The notes beneath the pieces are model-generated. The model searched no databases, was not told the origin of the DNA, and saw only the letters and a program-made list of their open reading frames with translations. Below are positions 2,510 to 52,533 of a DNA stretch of 64,000 bases, piece after piece; the stretch's first letter is position 1, and the number at the start of each line of letters is the position of its first letter. Both the position numbers and the translations under genes were made by a program. The DNA comes from Escherichia phage vB_EcoM_JN03. Location: sequence record OR885871. One strand, given 5' to 3'.

Positions 2510-2513
2510 CAAA

Positions 2514-2540
2514 AACCCCGCTTCGGTGGGGTTCTTATTA
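2514..2540 (+). terminator. Rho-independent terminator (aaccccgcttcggtggggtt + U-tract)
   Basis: GC-rich perfect hairpin immediately after the TSP-A stop, followed by a T-rich run. Confidence 0.7.
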
Positions 2541-2571
2541 TACCTTTGTTCATAAATTTTATTAGTTCAGA

Positions 2572-2579
2572 CTAAATAC
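2572..2579 (+). promoter_or_regulatory. Late-promoter-like box CTAAATAC upstream of TSP-B
   Basis: 7/8 match to T4 late promoter TATAAATA; the same box recurs upstream of several structural genes in this window. Confidence 0.45.
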
Positions 2580-2611
2580 CCCATATTGGTCATCCTTTAT
2601 GGGGTATTATC

Positions 2612-4525: not shown

Positions 4526-4573
4526 CATCACCAACATTATAAAATGATGTTGTTGCTGTTAAAATTTAAATAA

Positions 4574-4598
4574 CCCCGCTTTGGCGGGGTTCTTGTTA
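4574..4598 (+). terminator. Rho-independent terminator (aaccccgctttggcggggtt + U-tract)
   Basis: Near-identical copy of the hairpin at 2514-2540; part of a ~100-bp repeated intergenic cassette. Confidence 0.7.
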
Positions 4599-4629
4599 TA
4601 CCTTTGTTCATAAATTTTATTAGTTCAGA

Positions 4630-4637
4630 CTAAATAC
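4630..4637 (+). promoter_or_regulatory. Late-promoter-like box CTAAATAC upstream of TSP-C
   Basis: Same cassette as at 2572-2579. Confidence 0.45.
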
Positions 4638-4672
4638 CCCATATTGGCAAATCCTTTATGGGGTATTTTCAA

Positions 4673-30945: not shown

Positions 30946-30974
30946 GTTTACTTCTTCAATAAACCCCGTATACT
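30946..30974 (+). promoter_or_regulatory. Sigma70-like early promoter (GTTTAC - 17 nt - TATACT) embedded in a hairpin
   Basis: Same GGGGTTTAC -35 context as the cassettes at 49.7 and 50.05 kb; 17-nt spacer; upstream of the gene at 31008. Confidence 0.45.
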
Positions 30975-31007
30975 TCATTCCATAAGCAGCACAACACTGA
31001 CTCTGAA

Positions 31008-31319
31008 ATGAAGGACTACACCATGAACAACATGCCAACCACCAAAACTGCTCTGGAAATCGATTCTCGCTTTATCGTTGAAGCATGGGCCAACAGCCAA
31101 AACTCTTATGTGTATTCCCTTTATGTCGGTGACACTTATGTTTCTTGCCTCGGCATCGACGGCTCCAAGAACGAGCACGGCGTGAACGAGCGCTATACCA
31201 AAAAGCAGGCTATCGCTGATGCTACCAAATTCGCGACCGACATTCTGGGTCGCATCAATGCGGGTAAACCGTACAAACGCGGTGAAAAGGGCTATGTCAC
31301 CCAATTGCTTGGTGCTTGA
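31008..31319 (+). CDS. Hypothetical protein (103 aa)
   Basis: Start context gaaggactacaccATG, a recurring early-gene initiation motif in this window. Confidence 0.5.
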   Translation: MKDYTMNNMPTTKTALEIDSRFIVEAWANSQNSYVYSLYVGDTYVSCLGIDGSKNEHGVNERYTKKQAIADATKFATDILGRINAGKPYKRGEKGYVTQLLGA

Positions 31320-38450: not shown

Positions 38451-38480
38451 TCAATAACGATTCGGCGCTTTATTATCGGT

Positions 38481-38505
38481 GGCGGGGGTTTCCCCGCCCT
38501 TTGAA
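38481..38505 (+). terminator. Terminator-like hairpin (ggcgggggtttccccgcc + T-rich)
   Basis: Immediately downstream of gp45. Confidence 0.5.
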
Positions 38506-38528
38506 ACGTTTTATCTAAAGAGGCTGCA

Positions 38529-39974: not shown

Positions 39975-40439
39975 ATGGCGCGTAATACGCTGGACATCTT
40001 AAAACTTTCAGCTGTCAACGATGAGGCCAGCATTGTTGACTGTATGGTTGAAGTTCAATTGAACCAAGACAAACCAGGGATTTTCCTGGGTATCAAGGAA
40101 ACGCTGAGTCGGATAGGGGTTAACACTCGTCAAGAGCCTAACACCTTGTATCAAACGTGCCATATTCTGCATAAATTTGGCAGATATCACATCGTGCATT
40201 TCAAGCATTTGTTCATGCTAGATGGGCACTACAACGGCTTTACGCGTGAAGATGTCCTGCGTATGAATCGGATTATACGGCTTCTGGAGCAATGGAATAT
40301 GGTTAAGATCTTGCATCCGGAACAAATAACCGAAGTGGCTGACATGTCTCGGATCAAAGTTGTAAAACATGACCAAGTTTCTGAGTGGAAATTGGTTCCA
40401 AAATACACCATTCGCCCAAGTCGGGCAAAAAGCGAATAA
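39975..40439 (+). CDS. regA: Translational repressor RegA homolog
   Basis: LYQTCHILHKFGRYHIVHFKHLF and EWKLVPKYTIRP match T4 RegA LYQSCHILQKKGLYYIVHFKEM and EWKLVPKYTIG. Has ~23 extra N-terminal residues if the RBS-supported ATG at 39975 is used. Confidence 0.85.
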   Translation: MARNTLDILKLSAVNDEASIVDCMVEVQLNQDKPGIFLGIKETLSRIGVNTRQEPNTLYQTCHILHKFGRYHIVHFKHLFMLDGHYNGFTREDVLRMNRIIRLLEQWNMVKILHPEQITEVADMSRIKVVKHDQVSEWKLVPKYTIRPSRAKSE

Positions 40440-42612: not shown

Positions 42613-42727
42613 AGATTCCCTTTACTTCATTCTTCAATAACTCTTTTCAACGTATTATTGACCTCACTTAAACGAAGCGCCCTGGCAAACGGGGCGCACA
42701 TTTGAACTGAAACAGGAAGACTATACC

Positions 42728-44746
42728 ATGGCAGAATTCAAACCCTTCGCAACGGCAGTTAATAACAACGTGCTGGCGATGTCCGCAACTGGTCTGTTCA
42801 TGACCAATATCGATAAAGATGCTCTTTGGGATCTGTATCTGGAATCTTTCCCTGCTGGTACCAACCCGCTCTACCGTGAGCGTACCGAGCACGACTGTAC
42901 CTGCTGTAAACAATTCATCCGTAACATCGGCGGTGTGGTCACCATCGACTCCGACCTGAACGTGATTTCCATCTGGGACAACATTGATCTGGGTAATGAA
43001 TATGACGTGGTGGCTGCGGCGCTGTCGGCGTATGTCAAACAACACGCAATCGTCGATGTTTATTTTAACGATTCTGCCAAAGTCGGCCTGTCTCACAATC
43101 ACGAATCTGGTGAAGATGGCAAAATCCGTACTTATAATCATTTCCATACCCAATTACTTGGTAGCTATGTTCTGCGTCCGGACGCAATCGCTTCGAAAAA
43201 AGGTGAAATCCGCCAGGCTATTGAATTGTTTGAACGCGGTCTGCGTGAAATTACTCTGGAATCAGCTGAAATCGTTCTGGAACTGATTGACCAGAATTCT
43301 CTGTATCGCGGCGCAGAACACAAAGCAGCAGTGAAGGGATTTGTTGAAACCAAAAAGGCATATGAACAAGTCCCCGAATCAGCCCGTTCTCTTTGGGCAT
43401 GGCATACTGGATACCGTTCAAACAATCATGTTCCACACGGCATCCGTAACACAGTTATCGGCACTCTGCTGACAGATATCAGCGAAGGCGTGGAACTGGA
43501 AAAGGCTGTTAAATCGTTTGAATCCAAAGTTGCTCCGGCGAACTACAAACGTCCGACAGCGCTGGTTTCAAAATCCATGATCGAAAACGCTCAGAAAGAA
43601 GTTATTGCTCTGGGTTTGGAAGACTCACTGGCGCGTCGTTATGCGGTTTATGATGATCTGACAATCAACAACGTTCTGTTCGCAGATCTGGCTGCTCAGA
43701 AAGCGATGGATCCGTTTGCACAGCTGGCCGCCGAAGTGAAAACTCCGACCAAGTCCCTGGAAAAAGTTGAAGAGATCAGCGTTGATGATTTCCTGAGCAA
43801 TGTTCTGCCAAAAGCGCATTCAATGGAAGTGCTTGTAGAGAATTCTCATACTAGCAACCTGATGTCCCTGGTTGCTCCGGCGAACCCAGATGCGCCTAAC
43901 TTGTTCAAGTGGAACAACGGTTTCTCCTGGTCTTACAATGGTGAAGTGGCCGATTCCATTAAAGAACGTGTAAAGGCTGCTGGCGGTAAAGTTGACGGGT
44001 ATCTGCGCGTTTCCTTGGCGTGGCACAATAACGACGACCTCGATCTGCATATGTTCAACAACATGGAGCACGTTTACTTCCGCGATCGCCGCTCTATGAC
44101 AGGTGCCCATCTGGATATCGATATGAACGGTATGGATGGTATTGATCCAAACCGCGCTCCGGTGGAAAATATCATCTTTACAGATGAAAGCAAGCTGCGC
44201 GATGGTGAATACCGTTTCGAAATCCACAACTACAATCAACGTGAAAAAATCGACGAAGGGTTTGAAGTAGAAGTAGAATACAAAGGCGCAACGCATCGTT
44301 TCAGCCATCCTGGCCTGAAAGATCAGGGGCGTATCACTGCAGTCATCCTGACTGTTAAAGACAAACAAGTTGTTGGCATTAAGTCCGAACTGGCTAATGT
44401 TGATAAGTCTAAAGAAGTTTGGGGTATCAAGACTGCGACCTTCCAGAAAGTACAGCTGGTCCTGAACTCACCAAACCATTGGGATGGCGAGCAGACAGGC
44501 AACAAGCACGTGTTCTTCATCCTGGAAGGTTGTGCTAATCCTGAAGGTACTCGTGGTTTCTACAACGAATATCTGAAGCCAGAACTGGATAAACATCGTA
44601 AGGTTTTTGAAATGTTGGGTAGTAAAATGAAAGTCCAGCCGAATGAAAACCAACTGTCCGGTCTGGGATTCTCGACGACGCAACGCAACCACGTGTTCGT
44701 CAAAGTGTCCGGCGCGTTTAACCGTACTGTAAAAGTCATTTTCTAA
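42728..44746 (+). CDS. Large hypothetical protein (672 aa), function unknown
   Basis: Start context caggaagactataccATG. Cys cluster near the N-terminus (HDCTCC). No polymerase or P-loop motifs found. Confidence 0.5.
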   Translation: MAEFKPFATAVNNNVLAMSATGLFMTNIDKDALWDLYLESFPAGTNPLYRERTEHDCTCCKQFIRNIGGVVTIDSDLNVISIWDNIDLGNEYDVVAAALSAYVKQHAIVDVYFNDSAKVGLSHNHESGEDGKIRTYNHFHTQLLGSYVLRPDAIASKKGEIRQAIELFERGLREITLESAEIVLELIDQNSLYRGAEHKAAVKGFVETKKAYEQVPESARSLWAWHTGYRSNNHVPHGIRNTVIGTLLTDISEGVELEKAVKSFESKVAPANYKRPTALVSKSMIENAQKEVIALGLEDSLARRYAVYDDLTINNVLFADLAAQKAMDPFAQLAAEVKTPTKSLEKVEEISVDDFLSNVLPKAHSMEVLVENSHTSNLMSLVAPANPDAPNLFKWNNGFSWSYNGEVADSIKERVKAAGGKVDGYLRVSLAWHNNDDLDLHMFNNMEHVYFRDRRSMTGAHLDIDMNGMDGIDPNRAPVENIIFTDESKLRDGEYRFEIHNYNQREKIDEGFEVEVEYKGATHRFSHPGLKDQGRITAVILTVKDKQVVGIKSELANVDKSKEVWGIKTATFQKVQLVLNSPNHWDGEQTGNKHVFFILEGCANPEGTRGFYNEYLKPELDKHRKVFEMLGSKMKVQPNENQLSGLGFSTTQRNHVFVKVSGAFNRTVKVIF

Positions 44747-47097: not shown

Positions 47098-49306
47098 ATC
47101 ATTAACATTTAAGAATGCGGTTGCGACCGTCGCGCCGTCTAACCATGTAATCGTTGTGGATATCTCCGGTTCCATGTATCGTTCACTTCCAGAAGTCCGT
47201 AAGCATCTGAAGGAGAACCTGCCTTCCCTGGTGAAACCGGAAGATACTGTGAGCATCCTTTACTTTTCATCTCGCGGTGATTTCGGAACGGTATTTGCCG
47301 GACGTCAGATTAACAGTGCAACTGACCTCAGTGAGATCAATAATCTAATTGACCGTTTCCTGAAGCCTTCTGGTTGTACTGGTTTTGTTGAGCCGCTGAA
47401 ACTGGCTGCGGAAACTGCCATTAGCCTGAATAAACCTGGTTATGTTAACAACCTGGCATTCATGACCGACGGGTATGACAACTGCTGGCGTTCTAATGAA
47501 ATCCTGGATGCCGCTGAAGTACTGCCCAAAGCGTTTGATAACATTACCTTCATCGAATACGGTTGGTATTGTAATCGCGAACTGCTGGGGCTAATGGCAG
47601 AACGTTCTGGTGCGACCCACGTATTCGCCGAAGGACAGAATGAATATCAGACCGAATTGGAAAACGTGCTGAAAACTTCTTCACCGAAAGTTGTAGTCGA
47701 TGTTCCTCTGGTTTATACCCATGCCATTTATGTTGAAAATGGCGTGGCGACTGTTTTAGCTGTGCATCCTGATGAAGAGCACCCTATTGGCCACGTCAGC
47801 ATCCCTGAAAGCGTTTCTCAGCTGTGGGTTGTAAACCCCAACATGATCGACCAGCTGGATAATCTGGCAGACATCCAAGCGGCATACGTGCTGGCATTTT
47901 ACGGCGTGTATACCATGGACGCAGATTTGGTTTGGGCTGCGCTGAAGAAAACGGGAGATGTTCGTTTCATCAAACAATACAGCAACTGTTTCACCAAGCA
48001 GGACTATTCCAACATCAAAGTCGATCTGACCCAGGCTATCGTGGATGAAACTCTGCGCGGCGTAGATGGCATCGATTACAATATGGTTCCGGCTGAAGAC
48101 GCCACCACCATTGTTGATGTTCTGACGTATTTGGCTGAAGCAGATGTCTCTATCGTCACCAAGCATCCGCTATTCTCTTACAAGAGCATTGGGCGCGGTA
48201 CTATACAAAAAGTTGACGACACCGAAGACAAGTTGGCCGAAGAGATTGCGAATGCGACTTCTAAAGAAGAGCGTAAAGCCCTGGCGCTCAAACTGGCCGA
48301 GCACGAAGATTGGACGCCGGAATTCAATCCAGCAGATGATAAAGGGATTGTCCCGATCAGCAATTTGGTCTATAATTCAGAACGTCCTAACATCAGTGTG
48401 CAGACAGTTCAACACGGAACGGTTATTGTGCCTGAGTTTGTACAGAAGAAATATGAACTTCCTGAAGAGCTGGGAACCTGGCGTTATCGCAATTACACCA
48501 TTGTCAAGGATGGTATCATCAACCTGAAAACAATGCCTATCACTGCAGATTCTCCGATTGTTCGGGCTAAGGTGGCACAGGATTTGACTGCCATGGGTGT
48601 TCATGTGTTTGGTGGGCCGGAAGTCTTCATTGTAAATCTGGAAAGTGTCCCAATGGTTAACCGCGCCATGACAAAGAATATCAGTGCTGCTGAATTCTTT
48701 GCAGACAATGTGCGCCGTGAAGCATTGAAGGCAAAGCAAAAAGTTCTGAAATTCTACCGTGATGAACTGGTTGGCAAAGGCAACGCTACTGGTCTGGCTT
48801 CAAAATATGGCAAAGAAGCGGCTGATTTCCTGTCAGCAAACGGCATTCGCGACTATGGATTTTCACCGAAGACTTCTTCTGTAGAATCAACCGATGTCTA
48901 TATGAGTCGTGAATTGAATGTGAAAATCAAAGGCGCATCTTCACTGCCGAGCATCGCGTCTGTTATCAAAAAACAGACGGACGGTAAAAAACTGAATGTC
49001 GCTGATCAGCTGATCGCTAATGCCCTGGCCGAATACAATGCGTTTGTTAAATCGCCGATGATCACCAGCGTACCGGAAGAGACTCAGAAAAAGCTGATCG
49101 AAAGTTGGATTGGTGATGCAGCAAAAGCAGCTATCAACGAAGTTCGATCTCTGAACAAAACGCTGTCCAAGGTAGTTTATGGGATTGTTGCAGGCCATGG
49201 TTGGTTTACCGACCTGGATTTGGAAGAATCCACTATGGATGTGGAAGTTGATGGGGTGAAATACACTGTCACTGCCGAACTGGCTGAAAAAGAAGTCAAA
49301 ATCTAA
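47090..49306 (+). CDS. von Willebrand factor A (vWA) domain protein (~738 aa)
   Basis: MIDAS motif VVVDISGSM, conserved Thr region (SGCTGF) and FMTDGYDN, followed by ~550 aa of uncharacterised sequence. Start at the ATG with RBS aagaagg. Confidence 0.75.
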   Translation: MIESLTFKNAVATVAPSNHVIVVDISGSMYRSLPEVRKHLKENLPSLVKPEDTVSILYFSSRGDFGTVFAGRQINSATDLSEINNLIDRFLKPSGCTGFVEPLKLAAETAISLNKPGYVNNLAFMTDGYDNCWRSNEILDAAEVLPKAFDNITFIEYGWYCNRELLGLMAERSGATHVFAEGQNEYQTELENVLKTSSPKVVVDVPLVYTHAIYVENGVATVLAVHPDEEHPIGHVSIPESVSQLWVVNPNMIDQLDNLADIQAAYVLAFYGVYTMDADLVWAALKKTGDVRFIKQYSNCFTKQDYSNIKVDLTQAIVDETLRGVDGIDYNMVPAEDATTIVDVLTYLAEADVSIVTKHPLFSYKSIGRGTIQKVDDTEDKLAEEIANATSKEERKALALKLAEHEDWTPEFNPADDKGIVPISNLVYNSERPNISVQTVQHGTVIVPEFVQKKYELPEELGTWRYRNYTIVKDGIINLKTMPITADSPIVRAKVAQDLTAMGVHVFGGPEVFIVNLESVPMVNRAMTKNISAAEFFADNVRREALKAKQKVLKFYRDELVGKGNATGLASKYGKEAADFLSANGIRDYGFSPKTSSVESTDVYMSRELNVKIKGASSLPSIASVIKKQTDGKKLNVADQLIANALAEYNAFVKSPMITSVPEETQKKLIESWIGDAAKAAINEVRSLNKTLSKVVYGIVAGHGWFTDLDLEESTMDVEVDGVKYTVTAELAEKEVKI

Positions 49307-49314
49307 ATTCAACT

Positions 49315-49338
49315 GGCGGGGAAACCCGCCTTCATTTT
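49315..49338 (+). terminator. Terminator hairpin (ggcggggaaacccgcc + ttcatttt)
   Basis: Right after the vWA gene stop. Confidence 0.6.
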
Positions 49339-49349
49339 GAGATATGCTT

Positions 49350-49661
49350 ATGTCAAACAAACCAACTTATGTTGAAGTAATGCGTGTTCTGGCTCAGTAC
49401 GCTTGTGACAACCTGAACATGGAAACTTGGCGCAACGGGGATCACAAGGACAAGTTTGATAACATTGATGATAATATCGATGCTTTAGCGCCGTTACGGG
49501 TTAAGAATGATCTCGGCGGTGACGATCTTGACATGATTGAGCTGGTCATGGAAATCGAAGAAGAGTACGATGTAGAAATTAGTGACGAGTGGGTGGGTAA
49601 ACATGGAGATGATCCTACCCTCGGAGAGTTAGCTGAACTCGTCGTTGCCCTGCGCAAGTAA
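49350..49661 (+). CDS. Acyl carrier protein-like protein with Ser-to-Asp substitution at the phosphopantetheine site
   Basis: VKNDLGGDDLDMIELVMEIEEEYDVEISDE aligns with E. coli ACP [29 protein letters not shown]; the DSL serine is Asp (DDL). Confidence 0.7.
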   Translation: MSNKPTYVEVMRVLAQYACDNLNMETWRNGDHKDKFDNIDDNIDALAPLRVKNDLGGDDLDMIELVMEIEEEYDVEISDEWVGKHGDDPTLGELAELVVALRK

Positions 49662-49667
49662 CTGAAG

Positions 49668-49734
49668 ATCCCCAACGTTTGTTGGGGATTTTTACTTTTA
49701 GGGGTTTACTTCTATAAGGCAAATGCGTATTATT
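49668..49734 (+). promoter_or_regulatory. Terminator hairpin + sigma70-like early promoter cassette, copy 1
   Basis: Hairpin ccccaacgtttgttgggg, then GTTTAC - 18 nt - TATTAT; 53 bp identical to copy 2. Confidence 0.6.
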
Positions 49735-49782
49735 GAATTCATCGGGCGGGGCGTTCCCGTTCATTGAAAGAAGGTATATATT

Positions 49783-50013
49783 ATGTCTGCTGTATCACGC
49801 GTTGTTGACCTCACCCCATTTTGCCTGAACAATATTGCTAACCCTAAATTGGTATTGTTTAAAGATCCCTCTAATTTCTGCTGGCTGGCAAGTTGTGATA
49901 CCCACAACGGACGTCGTGCTGTTTGGGAGTTTCCCGCAACTGATGAAGGTAGAATTTCCGCTATAAGAAAATTAGAACTGGAAAATTCAAGCCGAGAAAT
50001 TAAACAGGCATAA
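49783..50013 (+). CDS. Hypothetical protein (76 aa)
   Basis: Sits between the two promoter cassettes. Confidence 0.45.
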   Translation: MSAVSRVVDLTPFCLNNIANPKLVLFKDPSNFCWLASCDTHNGRRAVWEFPATDEGRISAIRKLELENSSREIKQA

Positions 50014-50079
50014 CTTTTATTAAATCCCAACAAACGTTGGGGATTTTTACTTTTAGGGGTTTACTTCTATAAGGCAAAT
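50013..50079 (+). promoter_or_regulatory. Terminator hairpin + sigma70-like early promoter cassette, copy 2
   Basis: Hairpin cccaacaaacgttgggg (loop is the reverse complement of copy 1's loop), then an identical promoter. Confidence 0.6.
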
Positions 50080-50139
50080 GCGTATTATTCAATAACTGGC
50101 GAACGATGGGTTCACCAGGTTGAAAGGTAAGATTATATC

Positions 50140-50379
50140 ATGAAGAACAAAATGGTAGAAACTTCAGTGGAGATTGATCGTAATTGGGGCTTGCTCCGCG
50201 CTAAAGGGTTCCGTCGTGTGTATGCGACCAAAGAAGTATATGCCCAGCGCCGCGATGTTATCATCAGCAAGAAGGGAAAAGATTGGGTTGCCGAAGAAGT
50301 CGATGTCGAAACAGGCGTCGTCGGAAAGGTGAAAGCCAAGGCCGCGATCCTCTTCGCTCTTCTGAAGCACATCAGTTAA
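50140..50379 (+). CDS. Hypothetical basic protein (79 aa)
   Basis: Downstream of cassette 2; RBS aaaggtaag. Confidence 0.45.
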   Translation: MKNKMVETSVEIDRNWGLLRAKGFRRVYATKEVYAQRRDVIISKKGKDWVAEEVDVETGVVGKVKAKAAILFALLKHIS

Positions 50380-50438
50380 TTCTATAACTTAGGGTGGGGT
50401 ATGATTACCCCGCCTATTTGAAATGCAGGAACTATACC

Positions 50439-50945
50439 ATGACCGATCAACAAATTCAAGATTTATTTTACCTCGTCCATGATAAGTCCCATATTATGCG
50501 CCCTGGCACTGTTTCTCCTGTCGTCCGTGATCTGGTGCAAGAATTACGCGAACCGCAGATGACCACACTTTATCGTGGGTTGCCTAAAGAGGACGTTGTG
50601 CGTTTAGAGATGATGTTTGAACGAGGCGACATGTTCCAGACATGGGATTCTTGTCTTAGCTTCAGTGAATTGAAGCATGTGGCCAAAAAATTTTCTAAAT
50701 CGTATGGAACCAGAGCTGTTGCTCGCATTTGTTACAAACATCGAAACGGACTCCCAGAGGGGCTTAATGTCTTTGGTTCTCTAGAAAAATTTGTGAACAA
50801 AGACGATGAATCAGAAATGGATATGCTGGACTTGGCGTCCATGGAGAAAGAATGGATATTCTGCCAGCCTCGCGTCTTCCCAGTTTCAAGAAAAATGGCA
50901 ACAGATGGGACGATGGTTTTTACCGTATCACTTATTACTCTATAA
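50439..50945 (+). CDS. Hypothetical protein (168 aa)
   Basis: Start context tatttgaaatgcaggaactataccATG, repeated before the next gene; begins MTDQ. Confidence 0.5.
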   Translation: MTDQQIQDLFYLVHDKSHIMRPGTVSPVVRDLVQELREPQMTTLYRGLPKEDVVRLEMMFERGDMFQTWDSCLSFSELKHVAKKFSKSYGTRAVARICYKHRNGLPEGLNVFGSLEKFVNKDDESEMDMLDLASMEKEWIFCQPRVFPVSRKMATDGTMVFTVSLITL

Positions 50946-50998
50946 ACCCACGGCGGGGTATCTTTGCCCCGCCTATTTGAAATGCAGGAACTAATATC

Positions 50999-51277
50999 AT
51001 GACAGATCAAAGAAGTATTGCTCGTTCGGAAATCAAAGATATTATACAGAGCAAAACCAACGAAACTCATGCTCAATCCAGAATGCTATCTCGATTTGTT
51101 GAAATTAAGTTTGACATTGAAGAGAATAACAATCGGAGAGCGCTGGAGGGAATGTTGGCGATTATCTTGGGCCATGTCACCAATTCAGCATACGACATGG
51201 ATGATTTAACTCGTTTGTTGAACGCCCAGAATAACGTTGGGACTTCTGTTCGCGAATTGCTGTTTAAGTCCGAATGA
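50999..51277 (+). CDS. Hypothetical protein (92 aa)
   Basis: Same hairpin + tatttgaaatgcaggaacta leader as the previous gene; also begins MTDQ. Confidence 0.5.
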   Translation: MTDQRSIARSEIKDIIQSKTNETHAQSRMLSRFVEIKFDIEENNNRRALEGMLAIILGHVTNSAYDMDDLTRLLNAQNNVGTSVRELLFKSE

Positions 51278-51314
51278 ACTAACTAAGGGATAACCCTATA
51301 TCCCGAGGTGTGTC

Positions 51315-51764
51315 ATGTTCCTTACATCCTTTATTGACTGGATGAATATCATAAATGGTCTGAGGATCCCTGTTGGGAACCTCGGGCTTTCTCGTTCTTC
51401 TATGCCGCAAATCGATGCCGACAAACAAGAAGATTTTCACAAATATCTTGAAGACAACGGCGTGTCCATAGATGCTGCGCAAGTACCCATCAAAATGCTT
51501 CGTCTTACCCAGAACGAAATCAATAAAATGAAGGTCTGGAAGATTATGAAGCAGATCAGAAATAAGAAGCCCATGGGTCGAGTTTGGGTGTCTTCTGACA
51601 ATTACGTTGTTGACGGGTCTCACCGATTTGTCGCTGCGTTGAACATGGACGGCAAACAGCGCATGAAGGTCTACAAAGTTGATTTGCCAGCGATGGAATT
51701 TGTTAAACTCGCTAAACAGTTTCAGGGTGTGCGATACAGAACGGTCAGCGATACCCGTTTCTGA
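51315..51764 (+). CDS. ParB/Srx-like nuclease-domain protein
   Basis: Motif VVDGSHRFVAALN resembles the ParB N-terminal domain core (DGxHR...A). RBS gaggtg. Confidence 0.5.
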   Translation: MFLTSFIDWMNIINGLRIPVGNLGLSRSSMPQIDADKQEDFHKYLEDNGVSIDAAQVPIKMLRLTQNEINKMKVWKIMKQIRNKKPMGRVWVSSDNYVVDGSHRFVAALNMDGKQRMKVYKVDLPAMEFVKLAKQFQGVRYRTVSDTRF

Positions 51765-51843
51765 ATACGATAGTTTATTGAAACCCTTTACTCAACATGG
51801 TGACATCCCTATCATTTTATCCAATGAAATAAGGAGAATCACC

Positions 51844-52533
51844 ATGAAACGTTTAATCATCGGGGTTGTGCTGGCTGGTCTGGCACTTCCTGCCACCGCC
51901 AAGCTGAACTCCACAGGTGAAAAACTGTGGTCTGATCTTTCCTACTGTGCTGGGTTCTCCCAAGCTGTTGCTATAGACAAAACTGGTTCCATAGAGAACT
52001 TTGCTGAACTCTGGGCCACAGGTAACGTCACAGATGCCGTTGTAAACGCTGGTATTGAGTTTAATCGATATAAGCAAGGCGCGTTCAACCTGAAAGGATA
52101 TATGAACGACGAAGCATTTAACCGAGGAGGCATGGAGGCGAGCGATCTTATTATGACTGGTCGTATGGACACACAAGGACGAATGACCGTAAGACAGTGC
52201 CGTTCTCTCCCTTCTCCAGCATTACAAAAAGGTGTGCAGGTTGGCCGACGTCAGCTGGACCTCATCAATGATGGAAACCAATGTATCCGAGTATTTGAAT
52301 ATAGCGCTGATCAAGAATCTGATCGAAGACTGAAAAAGGAATGGCGGACTCGCGCCCTTGGCCTGAGAGCATGGCTGGTGGAAAATGATCATTATTATGA
52401 AGACCGTGTTCAGAATGGTTTGAAAGATCTTTCCACTAATTTGTCTGTCAATCTTGATGATCCCAGGCTTGCCCGTGAACTCAAGCAAACAAGAATTGAC
52501 TGTGATAATATGATGAAGGAGAACGAAAGATGA
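51844..52533 (+). CDS. Secreted (periplasmic) protein with signal peptide (230 aa)
   Basis: RBS aaggag. N-terminus MKRLIIGVVLAGLALPATA is a signal peptide with an A-x-A cleavage site. The ORF-track start at 51679 is upstream and unsupported. Confidence 0.55.
   Translation: MKRLIIGVVLAGLALPATAKLNSTGEKLWSDLSYCAGFSQAVAIDKTGSIENFAELWATGNVTDAVVNAGIEFNRYKQGAFNLKGYMNDEAFNRGGMEASDLIMTGRMDTQGRMTVRQCRSLPSPALQKGVQVGRRQLDLINDGNQCIRVFEYSADQESDRRLKKEWRTRALGLRAWLVENDHYYEDRVQNGLKDLSTNLSVNLDDPRLARELKQTRIDCDNMMKENER

What the first reader, a model, noticed from the sequence alone, without database searches (positions are those of the whole stretch)
50391..51001. Second repeated leader family (hairpin + tatttgaaatgcaggaacta) preceding two MTDQ-initiated genes
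Two consecutive genes are each preceded by a GC hairpin and the near-identical leader ccccgcctatttgaaatgcaggaacta(t/a)a(c/t)catg, and both proteins begin MTDQ. Similar leaders (tgaaatgaaggactacaccATG; gaactgaaacaggaagactataccATG) precede the genes at 31008 and 42728. This indicates a conserved translation-initiation or regulatory RNA element shared by a subset of early genes, possibly a site for a translational regulator such as the RegA encoded in this window.
Basis: seen in the sequence. Interest (0 to 1): 0.45.

Follow-up and report, generated by a model that had tools for sequence, protein, structure and literature searches.

The report
Repeated hairpin-plus-ribosome-site gene junction
Two neighbouring early genes of this Vi1/CBA120-like phage are each preceded by the same ~70-base junction, a stable RNA hairpin followed by the phage's standard ribosome-binding leader, and related phages show different genes swapped in and out exactly at this junction, so it looks like a promoter-less relative of the 'PeSL' shuffling cassettes of T4-type phages rather than a special regulatory RNA.

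Summary
Window 50380-50452 and 50939-51011 are two copies of one unit: TCTATAA, a 9-10 bp GC hairpin, YNATTTGAAA, AGGA, ACTAYAYC, ATGAC(C/A)GATCAA. A 27-mer is identical in both (0 expected by chance). The two proteins (168 aa ADP-ribosylase-like; 92 aa) are unrelated beyond MTDQ.

The window is a Kuttervirus (99.9% identical to Salmonella phage SPTD1 across the locus). A covariance model finds only these two copies in the SPTD1 genome. The looser ribosome-site consensus A[AG]GA-N1-3-TAYAYY-ATG occurs 10 times there, always at annotated starts.

Across Ackermannviridae the element follows the same 79-aa gene but precedes at least four confirmed genes: the ADP-ribosylase-like gene, the 92-aa gene, DenV and a signal-peptide gene. 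Two relatives have one hybrid copy and lack the first gene, as recombination between the repeats would produce.

The element has no promoter, and none lies between 50088 and 51787, so the hairpins are probably read through. The leader is unstructured. There is no Rfam match.

Best reading: a promoter-less PeSL-like junction (leaky terminator or stabiliser hairpin plus stereotyped ribosome site) that also serves as a recombination linker. RegA is encoded in the window, but nothing links it to this leader. Modest interest.

The parts
50380..50452 (+). Element copy 1, the whole repeat unit: TCTATAA, hairpin, leader and the first 4 codons.
   Evidence: Covariance model R1 scores 70.7 bits at 50384-50428.
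50392..50415 (+). Hairpin of copy 1: GGGUGGGGUA-UGAU-UACCCCGCCU, 10 bp including U.G and G.U pairs.
   Evidence: Fold. Pair conservation is 94.7% across 19 distinct copies, and the one-sided changes are wobble pairs valid only in the sense-strand RNA.
50416..50438 (+). Leader of copy 1: AUUUGAAAUGC, the Shine-Dalgarno AGGA (50427-50430) and the spacer ACUAUACC.
   Evidence: The leader is no more structured than shuffles (z=+1.1).
50439..50945 (+). Gene 1, 168 aa, starting MTDQQ. It matches PHROG 832, 'RNA polymerase ADP-ribosylase'.
   Evidence: E=9.5e-16. No Pfam hit and no PDB sequence hit.
50939..51011 (+). Element copy 2, the whole repeat unit. Its TCTATAA contains the stop codon of gene 1.
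   Evidence: R1 scores 60.8 bits at 50943-50987.
50952..50973 (+). Hairpin of copy 2: GGCGGGGUA-UCUU-UGCCCCGCC, 9 bp.
50974..50998 (+). Leader of copy 2, with AGGA at 50986-50989 and the spacer ACUAAUAUC.
   Evidence: Unstructured (z=+0.5).
50999..51277 (+). Gene 2, 92 aa, starting MTDQR. PHROG 4458, function unknown.
50140..50379 (+). Upstream 79-aa gene (PHROG 804). Copy 1 of the element follows this gene in every relative examined.
50026..50093 (+). PeSL-like repeat D5, copy 2: terminator hairpin plus TTTACT-N17-TATTAT. This is the likely promoter of the operon p79, gene 1, gene 2, p149.
51787..51815 (+). Next early-type promoter, TTTACT-N17-TATCAT. No promoter-like site lies between 50088 and this point.
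42677..42730 (+). Looser relative: hairpin, ACATTTGAACTGAAACAGGAAGACTATACC and ATG of a 671-aa gene.
31003..31025 (+). Looser relative, ribosome site only: TGAAATGAAGGACTACACC-ATG. It lies downstream of a PeSL-type promoter at 30947-30975.
39975..40439 (+). regA homologue.

Best explanation
The element is an intercistronic junction inside an early operon of a Kuttervirus. The operon is read from the promoter at 50060-50088 and runs p79, the ADP-ribosylase-like gene, p92 and p149.

The junction has two functional halves.
1. A stable GC hairpin forms in the sense RNA directly after the stop codon of the upstream gene. It has only a short U-tail (UAUUUG) and is followed by genes that have no promoter of their own. 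It therefore most likely acts as a leaky terminator (attenuator) and/or as a 3'-end stabiliser of the upstream message, not as a full stop. This step is inferred.
2. An unstructured, purine- and AU-rich leader carries the phage's stereotyped ribosome-binding region: UUUGAAA, AGGA, an 8-9 nt ACUAYAYC spacer and AUG. It drives translation of whatever gene follows. The sequence features are shown. The activity is inferred.

The two copies are so alike, even into the first four codons, because the junction is a preferred site of homologous recombination and gene conversion. Relatives show that cassettes have been inserted, deleted and replaced exactly at it. In evolutionary terms it works as a portable 'linker' that lets a new gene arrive already equipped for expression. 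This is the same logic as the PeSL cassettes of T4-type phages, but without the promoter. The comparative pattern is shown. The recombination mechanism is inferred.
For: The repeat is real and non-coding:
- establish the repeat and the lack of protein similarity.

The hairpin acts at the RNA level on the sense strand:
- Pairs are conserved in 94.7% of cells across 19 distinct copies.
- 23 wobble cells and one GC-to-AU compensatory change keep pairing only in the sense RNA.
- Loop sequences differ between copies, and in two relatives the loop is inverted. This argues for a structural role.

The hairpin is not a canonical terminator:
- The terminator scan did not flag it. Only 4 of the first 8 tail bases are T.
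- Klebsiella phage Madison's own annotation lists a terminator elsewhere in the locus but none at the element.
- No promoter-like site lies on the + strand between 50088 and 51787, even with a relaxed pattern. Downstream genes therefore need read-through.

The leader is an open ribosome site:
- It folds no better than shuffles (z from +0.2 to +1.7 for six leaders).
- The consensus A[AG]GA-N1-3-TAYAYY-ATG occurs 10 times in the SPTD1 genome, always at annotated starts.
- The motif is enriched in the window, 4 matches against 0.43 expected.
- 'Hairpin then TTTGA[AG]' occurs 14 times against 1.9 in shuffles, mostly 12-29 nt before a start codon.

The junction serves as a recombination linker:
- In Kuttervirus, Limestonevirus, a Klebsiella phage, a Yersinia phage and phage AV101, the element follows p79. 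It precedes the ADP-ribosylase-like gene, p92, DenV (PF03013) or the MKKLIL signal-peptide gene.
- L004 and L005 have p79, one hybrid element and p92. The hybrid has the copy-1 hairpin and the copy-2 coding start. This is the product expected from a crossover between the two direct repeats.
- The same leader allele precedes different genes, and the same gene carries different leader alleles.
- Within-genome identity between the copies is 30/32 in the window and 32/32 in L007. That exceeds the orthologous identity between the window and CBA120 (27/31), although their flanking DNA is about 97-98% identical.

Precedent:
- PeSLs carry GGGG...CCCC stem-loops with SD and ATG at their 3' end, lie in hyperplastic regions, and have crossovers mapped between the SD/ATG and the -10 box (PMC2839356, PMC4122927).
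Against: - No transcript data exist for this phage family in the searched literature. Read-through, attenuation and stabilisation are therefore untested.
- Covariation in the hairpin is thin. There is one compensatory change, and 53 of 500 shuffles reach the observed covariation score.
- ATTTGAAA is invariant in all 19 copies, and copy 1 is conserved across subfamilies. This is more conservation than a mere spacer needs, and it could reflect a sequence-specific factor.
- Concerted evolution is seen in only some genomes.
- An unrecognised middle-type promoter cannot be excluded. Early and middle regulation of ViI-like phages is uncharacterised (PMC3184105).
Confidence: 0.6

Rival explanations
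1. The leader is an RNA operator for a translational repressor, either the RegA encoded at 39975-40439 or another phage RNA-binding protein. The repressor binds the conserved single-stranded UAUUUGAAAU..AGGAACUAUAYC-AUGAC and co-regulates the two genes.
For: - RegA is present.
- The leader is unstructured, as RegA sites are in T4 (the T4 part is from my own knowledge).
- ATTTGAAA is invariant in 19 copies.
- The identity extends across the AUG into the coding sequence.
Against: - The leaders of gp45, gp44, gp62 and regA, which are orthologues of the classical T4 RegA targets, lack the motif.
- The SD-to-AUG part of the leader, where a repressor would compete with the ribosome, is the most variable part among copies.
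- Only two copies exist per genome.
- The same leader serves unrelated genes in relatives.
Confidence: 0.1
2. The element is an endonucleolytic processing site, for RNase E or a phage nuclease. Cleavage in the AU-rich single strand just 3' of the hairpin leaves the upstream message capped by a protective 3' hairpin and releases the downstream message with a short leader.
For: - The architecture is a stable hairpin followed by single-stranded UAUUUGAAAU. This resembles classical RNase E sites such as RNA I ACAGUAUUUG (from my own knowledge).
- 'Hairpin then TTTGA' is enriched at gene junctions.
- This reading is compatible with the read-through requirement.
Against: - The base before AUUU varies among copies (U, C or G). 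The purine preferred at position -2 in the published RNase E consensus (from my own knowledge) is not conserved.
- No data support cleavage.
- This reading is not exclusive of the best explanation.
Confidence: 0.12
3. The hairpins are efficient intrinsic terminators, and each downstream gene is transcribed from an unrecognised phage-specific (middle-type) promoter embedded in TATTTGAAAT...TATAYC.
For: - The stem is strong.
- TTGAAA matches TTGACA in 5 of 6 positions.
- Early and middle promoters of ViI-like phages are said to be unidentified (PMC3184105).
Against: - The spacing from TTGAAA to TATAYC is 9 nt, not 16-18.
- A start site about 7 nt after TATAYC would fall inside or beyond the ATG.
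- No promoter-like site is called here.
- Kutter et al. found no MotA or AsiA homologues.
- The U-tail is short.
Confidence: 0.06
4. The conserved hairpin is a DNA-level target, for example a cruciform or hairpin recognised by a phage nuclease or recombinase, or a minus-strand promoter. On this reading the RNA features are incidental.
For: - The hairpin core occurs in both orientations (GGGGTATGATTACCCC and GGGGTAATCATACCCC). This points to DNA-level events at the palindrome.
- A minus-strand extended -10 site, TTGAAT-17-TATAGT with an upstream TG, lies at 50459..50431.
- The PeSL authors speculated that GGGG..CCCC stems might be a target.
Against: - The wobble changes in the stem preserve pairing only in the sense RNA, not in DNA or in the antisense RNA.
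- The antisense promoter-like site exists only at copy 1, and its -35 lies in the gene-specific coding sequence.
Confidence: 0.05

Closest known systems
PeSL (promoter-early stem-loop) mobile regulatory cassettes of T4-type phages: RB49/phi1, T4/PST and KVP40/nt-1 (Arbiol et al. 2010, PMC2839356; Comeau et al. 2014, PMC4122927)
   Same: - It is a short conserved intergenic module with a GGGG...CCCC stem-loop, and with SD and ATG at its 3' end.
- It lies in a gene-variable region of small early genes.
- Direct repeats flank a cassette that is present or absent in close relatives.
- Replacement of unrelated genes occurs at the same junction.
- The crossover zone lies in the leader.
   Different: - The element has no sigma-70-like promoter, so its cassettes are not transcriptionally autonomous. 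They depend on read-through from an upstream PeSL-like promoter.
- It occurs in Ackermannviridae, a family for which the papers I searched describe no PeSLs.
- It has only two copies per genome.
- The neighbouring D5 repeat (49671 / 50026) and the element at 30947 do look like full PeSLs.
Intercistronic stabiliser or attenuator stem-loops in polycistronic mRNAs, for example REP hairpins in malEFG, the puf operon hairpins and hairpins in T4 early transcripts (from my own knowledge)
   Same: It is a stable hairpin directly after a stop codon, inside an operon whose distal genes have no promoter of their own, with a weak U-tail.
   Different: No decay or termination data exist here. The hairpin is also fused to a conserved ribosome-site leader and behaves as one recombining unit.
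T4 RegA translational operators
   Same: The site is single-stranded, overlaps the SD and AUG of early genes, and a RegA homologue is encoded nearby.
   Different: There is no sequence resemblance to the leaders of this phage's gp44, gp45, gp62 or regA orthologues. The part nearest the AUG is the least conserved. No binding data exist.

Membership tests
PeSL cassette (Arbiol 2010; Comeau 2014) | A conserved stem-loop, typically GGGG...CCCC, in an intergenic region. | tested here: met
   The stems are 9-10 bp, GGGG..CCCC. They are conserved in 19 distinct copies.
PeSL cassette (Arbiol 2010; Comeau 2014) | A sigma-70-like early promoter (-35, N17, -10) within the element. | tested here: not met
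   No + strand promoter-like site lies in 50380-50440 or 50939-51000, nor anywhere between 50088 and 51787, even with a relaxed pattern.
PeSL cassette (Arbiol 2010; Comeau 2014) | A Shine-Dalgarno sequence and the start codon of the downstream gene at the 3' end of the element. | tested here: met
   AGGA lies 8-9 nt before the ATG in both copies.
PeSL cassette (Arbiol 2010; Comeau 2014) | The element lies at insertion, deletion or replacement boundaries between close relatives, and repeats flank a removable ORF. | tested here: met
   The arrangement p79-E-ADPRT-E-p92 contrasts with p79-E-p92 in L004 and L005. DenV or the MKKLIL gene occupies the same slot in other relatives.
PeSL cassette (Arbiol 2010; Comeau 2014) | Formation of mini-circles by recombination between flanking copies, and measured promoter and terminator activity. 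| not testable with these tools
   This needs inverse PCR on infected cells and reporter fusions.
Canonical intrinsic (Rho-independent) terminator | A GC-rich stem-loop followed directly by a U-rich tract (at least 5 U in 8). | tested here: not met
   The stem is present, but the tail TATTTGAA has 4 T in 8. The scan did not call it, and the Madison record does not annotate it as a terminator.
Canonical intrinsic (Rho-independent) terminator | It marks the end of a transcription unit, so downstream genes have their own promoter. | tested here: not met
   No promoter-like site lies before 51787.
RegA translational operator | The cognate repressor is encoded by the phage. | tested here: met
   PF01818, E=4e-35, at 39975-40439.
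RegA translational operator | A motif shared with the initiation regions of the known RegA regulon (genes 44, 45, 62, regA). | tested here: not met
   The leaders of those orthologues in SPTD1 lack the element and the AGGAACTAYAYC consensus.
RegA translational operator | Specific binding of the repressor and repression of translation. | not testable with these tools
   This needs biochemistry or genetics.
Any curated RNA family (Rfam 15) | A match to a covariance model. | tested here: not met
   No match with E<=1 in 49000-52500 on either strand.

The most novel reading that the evidence does not exclude
The hairpin with its invariant ATTTGAAA is a specific recognition site. It could be an RNA operator or processing signal for a phage factor, or a DNA hairpin targeted by a phage recombination enzyme. 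Either way it would actively direct cassette capture at a fixed 'docking' position downstream of the 79-aa gene throughout Ackermannviridae. That would be a phage analogue of an integron attachment site, rather than a passive patch of homology.
Probability: 0.1. Interest if true: 0.65.

Novelty: new variant of a known kind. Interest (0 to 1): 0.3.

Why it matters
Early and middle gene regulation in ViI/CBA120-like phages is uncharacterised (PMC3184105). These phages are widely used for biocontrol and therapy.

This locus gives a clean, testable example of how accessory genes (an ADP-ribosylase-like gene, DenV and a secreted protein) are exchanged at a conserved junction while staying expressed. 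It extends the PeSL idea to another phage family and to a promoter-less form.

In practical terms, the junction marks a natural insertion site with a ready-made ribosome-binding leader for engineering these phages.

It is not a new class of regulatory RNA.

Tried and rejected
1. A stem pairing UUUGA with UCAAA that would occlude the SD and AUG. Whole-segment folds suggested it. It was rejected because the leader alone folds no better than dinucleotide shuffles in six examples (z from +0.2 to +1.7), and the downstream partner is not kept in the DenV or MKKLIL versions.

2. Paralogy of the two MTDQ proteins. Rejected, because there is no BLASTP alignment and the two fall in different PHROGs.

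3. A sigma-70 or MotA-like promoter in the leader. Rejected on spacing and by the scans.

4. A known RNA family. None matched.

5. A genome-wide family of the full element. Rejected, because the covariance model finds two copies only. The next hit scores 17 bits and lacks a hairpin.

6. The IMG/VR scan with CCCCGNCNATTTGAAAT returned mostly chance hits in unrelated contigs. Only the 150-160 kb Ackermannviridae contigs were informative.

7. Searches for transcriptome or promoter papers on Kuttervirus and Ackermannviridae found nothing usable.

8. PDB sequence and Pfam searches for the 168-aa protein gave nothing.

Full report
**Identity of the window.** Across the 3.3 kb around the finding, the window is 99.9% identical to Salmonella phage SPTD1. 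It is 97-98% identical to CBA120, SJ3 and other Kuttervirus phages of the family Ackermannviridae, the 'ViI-like' phages. I assembled the SPTD1 genome (157.5 kb) and used it as a proxy for the complete genome. The window is collinear with it apart from small indels.

**The observation.**
- The 27-mer CCCCGCCTATTTGAAATGCAGGAACTA occurs exactly twice, at 50408 and 50967. No match appeared in any shuffle.
- Read directly, the repeat unit is about 70 nt. It consists of TCTATAA, 5-6 variable bases, a GC hairpin, YNATTTGAAA, 2-5 bases, AGGA, an 8-9 nt spacer ACTAYAYC, and ATGAC(C/A)GATCAA.
- The unit occupies 50380-50452 and 50939-51011. In copy 2 the TCTATAA contains the stop codon of the upstream gene.
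- The hairpins fold as 10 and 9 bp stems with 4-nt loops.
- The downstream ORFs are 50439-50945 (168 aa) and 50999-51277 (92 aa). Both begin with MTDQ but are otherwise unrelated.
- The 168-aa protein matches PHROG 832, 'RNA polymerase ADP-ribosylase'. The 92-aa protein matches PHROG 4458, of unknown function.
- The similarity is therefore a shared non-coding junction that runs 12-13 nt into each gene. It is not a duplicated gene.

**Copy number.**
- A covariance model built from 19 distinct copies of hairpin plus proximal leader finds only the two copies in the window and in the SPTD1 genome, at 70.7 and 60.8 bits. The next hit scores 17 bits and has no hairpin. The strict element is a two-copy, locus-specific family.
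- Two looser features do recur.
- First, the ribosome-site consensus A[AG]GA-N1-3-TAYAYY-ATG occurs 10 times in SPTD1, always at an annotated start codon. AGGAACTAYAYCATG with up to 2 mismatches occurs 4 times in the window against 0.43 expected.
- Second, a GC hairpin followed within 5 nt by TTTGA[AG] occurs 14 times against 1.9 in Markov shuffles, mostly 12-29 nt before a start codon. This includes the gene at 42728.

**Structure.**
- Across the 19 copies, 94.7% of stem cells pair. The one-sided changes are G.U or U.G wobbles, and there is one GC-to-AU compensatory change. These keep pairing only in the sense-strand RNA, which points to an RNA-level hairpin.
- The covariation is statistically weak: 53 of 500 shuffles do as well.
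- Loop sequences differ between copies. In two relatives the 16-nt hairpin core is present in inverted orientation. This argues for a structural role, not a sequence-specific role, for the loop.
- The leader downstream of the hairpin is not structured. Six leaders fold no better than their shuffles (z from +0.2 to +1.7). That rejects the SD-occluding stem hinted at by the whole-segment folds.
- There is no Rfam match.

**Transcription context.**
- The only early-type promoters near the locus are TTTACT-N17-TATTAT at 49705 and 50060, both inside the neighbouring 68-nt repeat D5, and TTTACT-N17-TATCAT at 51787.
- Nothing promoter-like, even with a relaxed pattern, lies between 50088 and 51787 on the + strand.
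- The 79-aa gene, the 168-aa gene, the 92-aa gene and the 149-aa gene are therefore most simply one operon, and both hairpins must be read through.
- The tail after the stem (TATTTGAA) has 4 T in 8, and the terminator scan does not call it. Klebsiella phage Madison's annotation marks a terminator elsewhere in the locus but not at the element.
- I infer a leaky terminator or attenuator, and/or a 3' stabiliser. This is not shown.

**Comparative evidence.**
- I examined about 25 relatives from IMG/VR and GenBank.
- Copy 1 of the element follows the 79-aa gene in Kuttervirus, Limestonevirus (Kamild), Klebsiella phage Madison, Yersinia phage CAU_YEP3 and phage AV101.
- What follows the element differs between relatives:
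  - the ADP-ribosylase-like gene;
  - the 92-aa gene directly;
  - DenV, a pyrimidine-dimer glycosylase (PF03013, E=4e-13);
  - a signal-peptide protein beginning MKKLIL;
  - in L060, a different stretch whose gene I did not characterise.
- L004 and L005 have the 79-aa gene, one element and the 92-aa gene. That single element combines the copy-1 hairpin with the copy-2 start. This is the product of a crossover between the two direct repeats, or its reverse, an insertion.
- Where DenV is followed by the MKKLIL gene there is no hairpin, but the junction TGAAGAGACTATATC-ATG keeps the ribosome-site consensus. Here the TGA is DenV's stop codon.
- Leader alleles and downstream genes assort independently.
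- In the window and in L007 the two copies are more alike (30/32 and 32/32) than orthologous copies in 97-98% identical genomes (27/31). This suggests gene conversion in some lineages.

**Comparison with known systems.**
- PeSLs of T4-type phages are short cassettes made of a GGGG..CCCC stem-loop and a sigma-70-like promoter, ending in SD and ATG.
- They sit in hyperplastic regions and flank ORFs that are gained, lost or replaced. Crossovers have been mapped between the SD/ATG and the -10 box (PMC2839356, PMC4122927).
- The element here meets every sequence and comparative criterion except the promoter, which was tested and is absent. I therefore do not file it as a PeSL. I describe it as a promoter-less PeSL-like junction.
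- The adjacent D5 repeat flanks a 76-aa ORF that is missing from CBA120 and Se-G. The element at 30947 has its stem-loop between the -35 and -10 boxes. Both look like full PeSLs.

**The RegA idea.**
- RegA is encoded at 39975-40439.
- The leaders of this phage's gp45, gp44, gp62 and regA lack the motif.
- The segment nearest the AUG is the most variable part of the element.
- The same leader serves unrelated genes in relatives.
- I give this idea about 0.1. An RNase E-type processing site is compatible with the architecture but has no support from data, and I give it about 0.12.
- The CBA120 genome paper states that early and middle control in these phages is unknown. I found no transcriptome study.

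**Verdict.**
The regulon and RegA reading is unsupported.
- The most likely nature is a read-through hairpin plus stereotyped ribosome-binding leader that doubles as a recombination linker for cassette exchange.
- It is a new variant of a known kind and of modest interest.

Noticed in passing
window 49671-49738 and 50026-50093: A 68-nt direct repeat (93% identical) made of a terminator hairpin with a T-run plus the promoter TTTACT-N17-TATTAT. It flanks the 76-aa ORF at 49783-50013, which is absent from CBA120 and Se-G. It looks like a full PeSL-type cassette in an Ackermannviridae phage.
   Followed up: partly
window 30947-31025: An early-type promoter, TTTACT...TATACT, with a GGGG..CCCC stem-loop between the -35 and -10 boxes. 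It is followed by a conserved 5' UTR (TCATTCCATAAGCAG...) that recurs at two other SPTD1 genes, whose starts are at record positions 99035 and 64125.
   Followed up: partly
L007 2445-2500 and L072 (minus strand, about 2544-2574): In copy 2 of the element the 16-nt hairpin core is inverted (GGGGTAATCATACCCC instead of GGGGTATGATTACCCC). This suggests strand-switch or inversion events at the palindrome.
   Followed up: no
window 50439-50945: The 168-aa protein matches PHROG 832, 'RNA polymerase ADP-ribosylase' (E=9.5e-16), and RefSeq names it that way. It has no Pfam hit and no PDB sequence hit. The CBA120 genome paper stated that ViI-like phages lack Alt and ModA homologues. In some relatives the same slot holds DenV instead.
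   Followed up: partly
window 50459..50431, minus strand: A promoter-like site, TTGAAT-17-TATAGT with an upstream TG (extended -10), lies on the antisense strand over the start of the 168-aa gene. It is present only at copy 1. The reverse complement of the ribosome-site consensus (CATGATATAGT) generally resembles an extended -10 element.
   Followed up: no
window 2511-2589 and 4569-4647: A 79-nt repeat (95% identical) made of a terminator hairpin followed by CTAAATACCCC, the motif annotated in SPTD1 as the Kuttervirus late promoter. It lies upstream of two tailspike genes.
   Followed up: no
L021 4831-4890, L047 4579-4640; window about 38472-38511: The gp45-gp44 junction carries a GGCGGGG..CCCCGCC hairpin followed by (TA)TTTGAAA. 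In Limestonevirus-like contigs its 3' arm and tail (CCCCGCCTATTTGAAATG) are identical to the element over 18 nt, although the rest of the leader differs.
   Followed up: no
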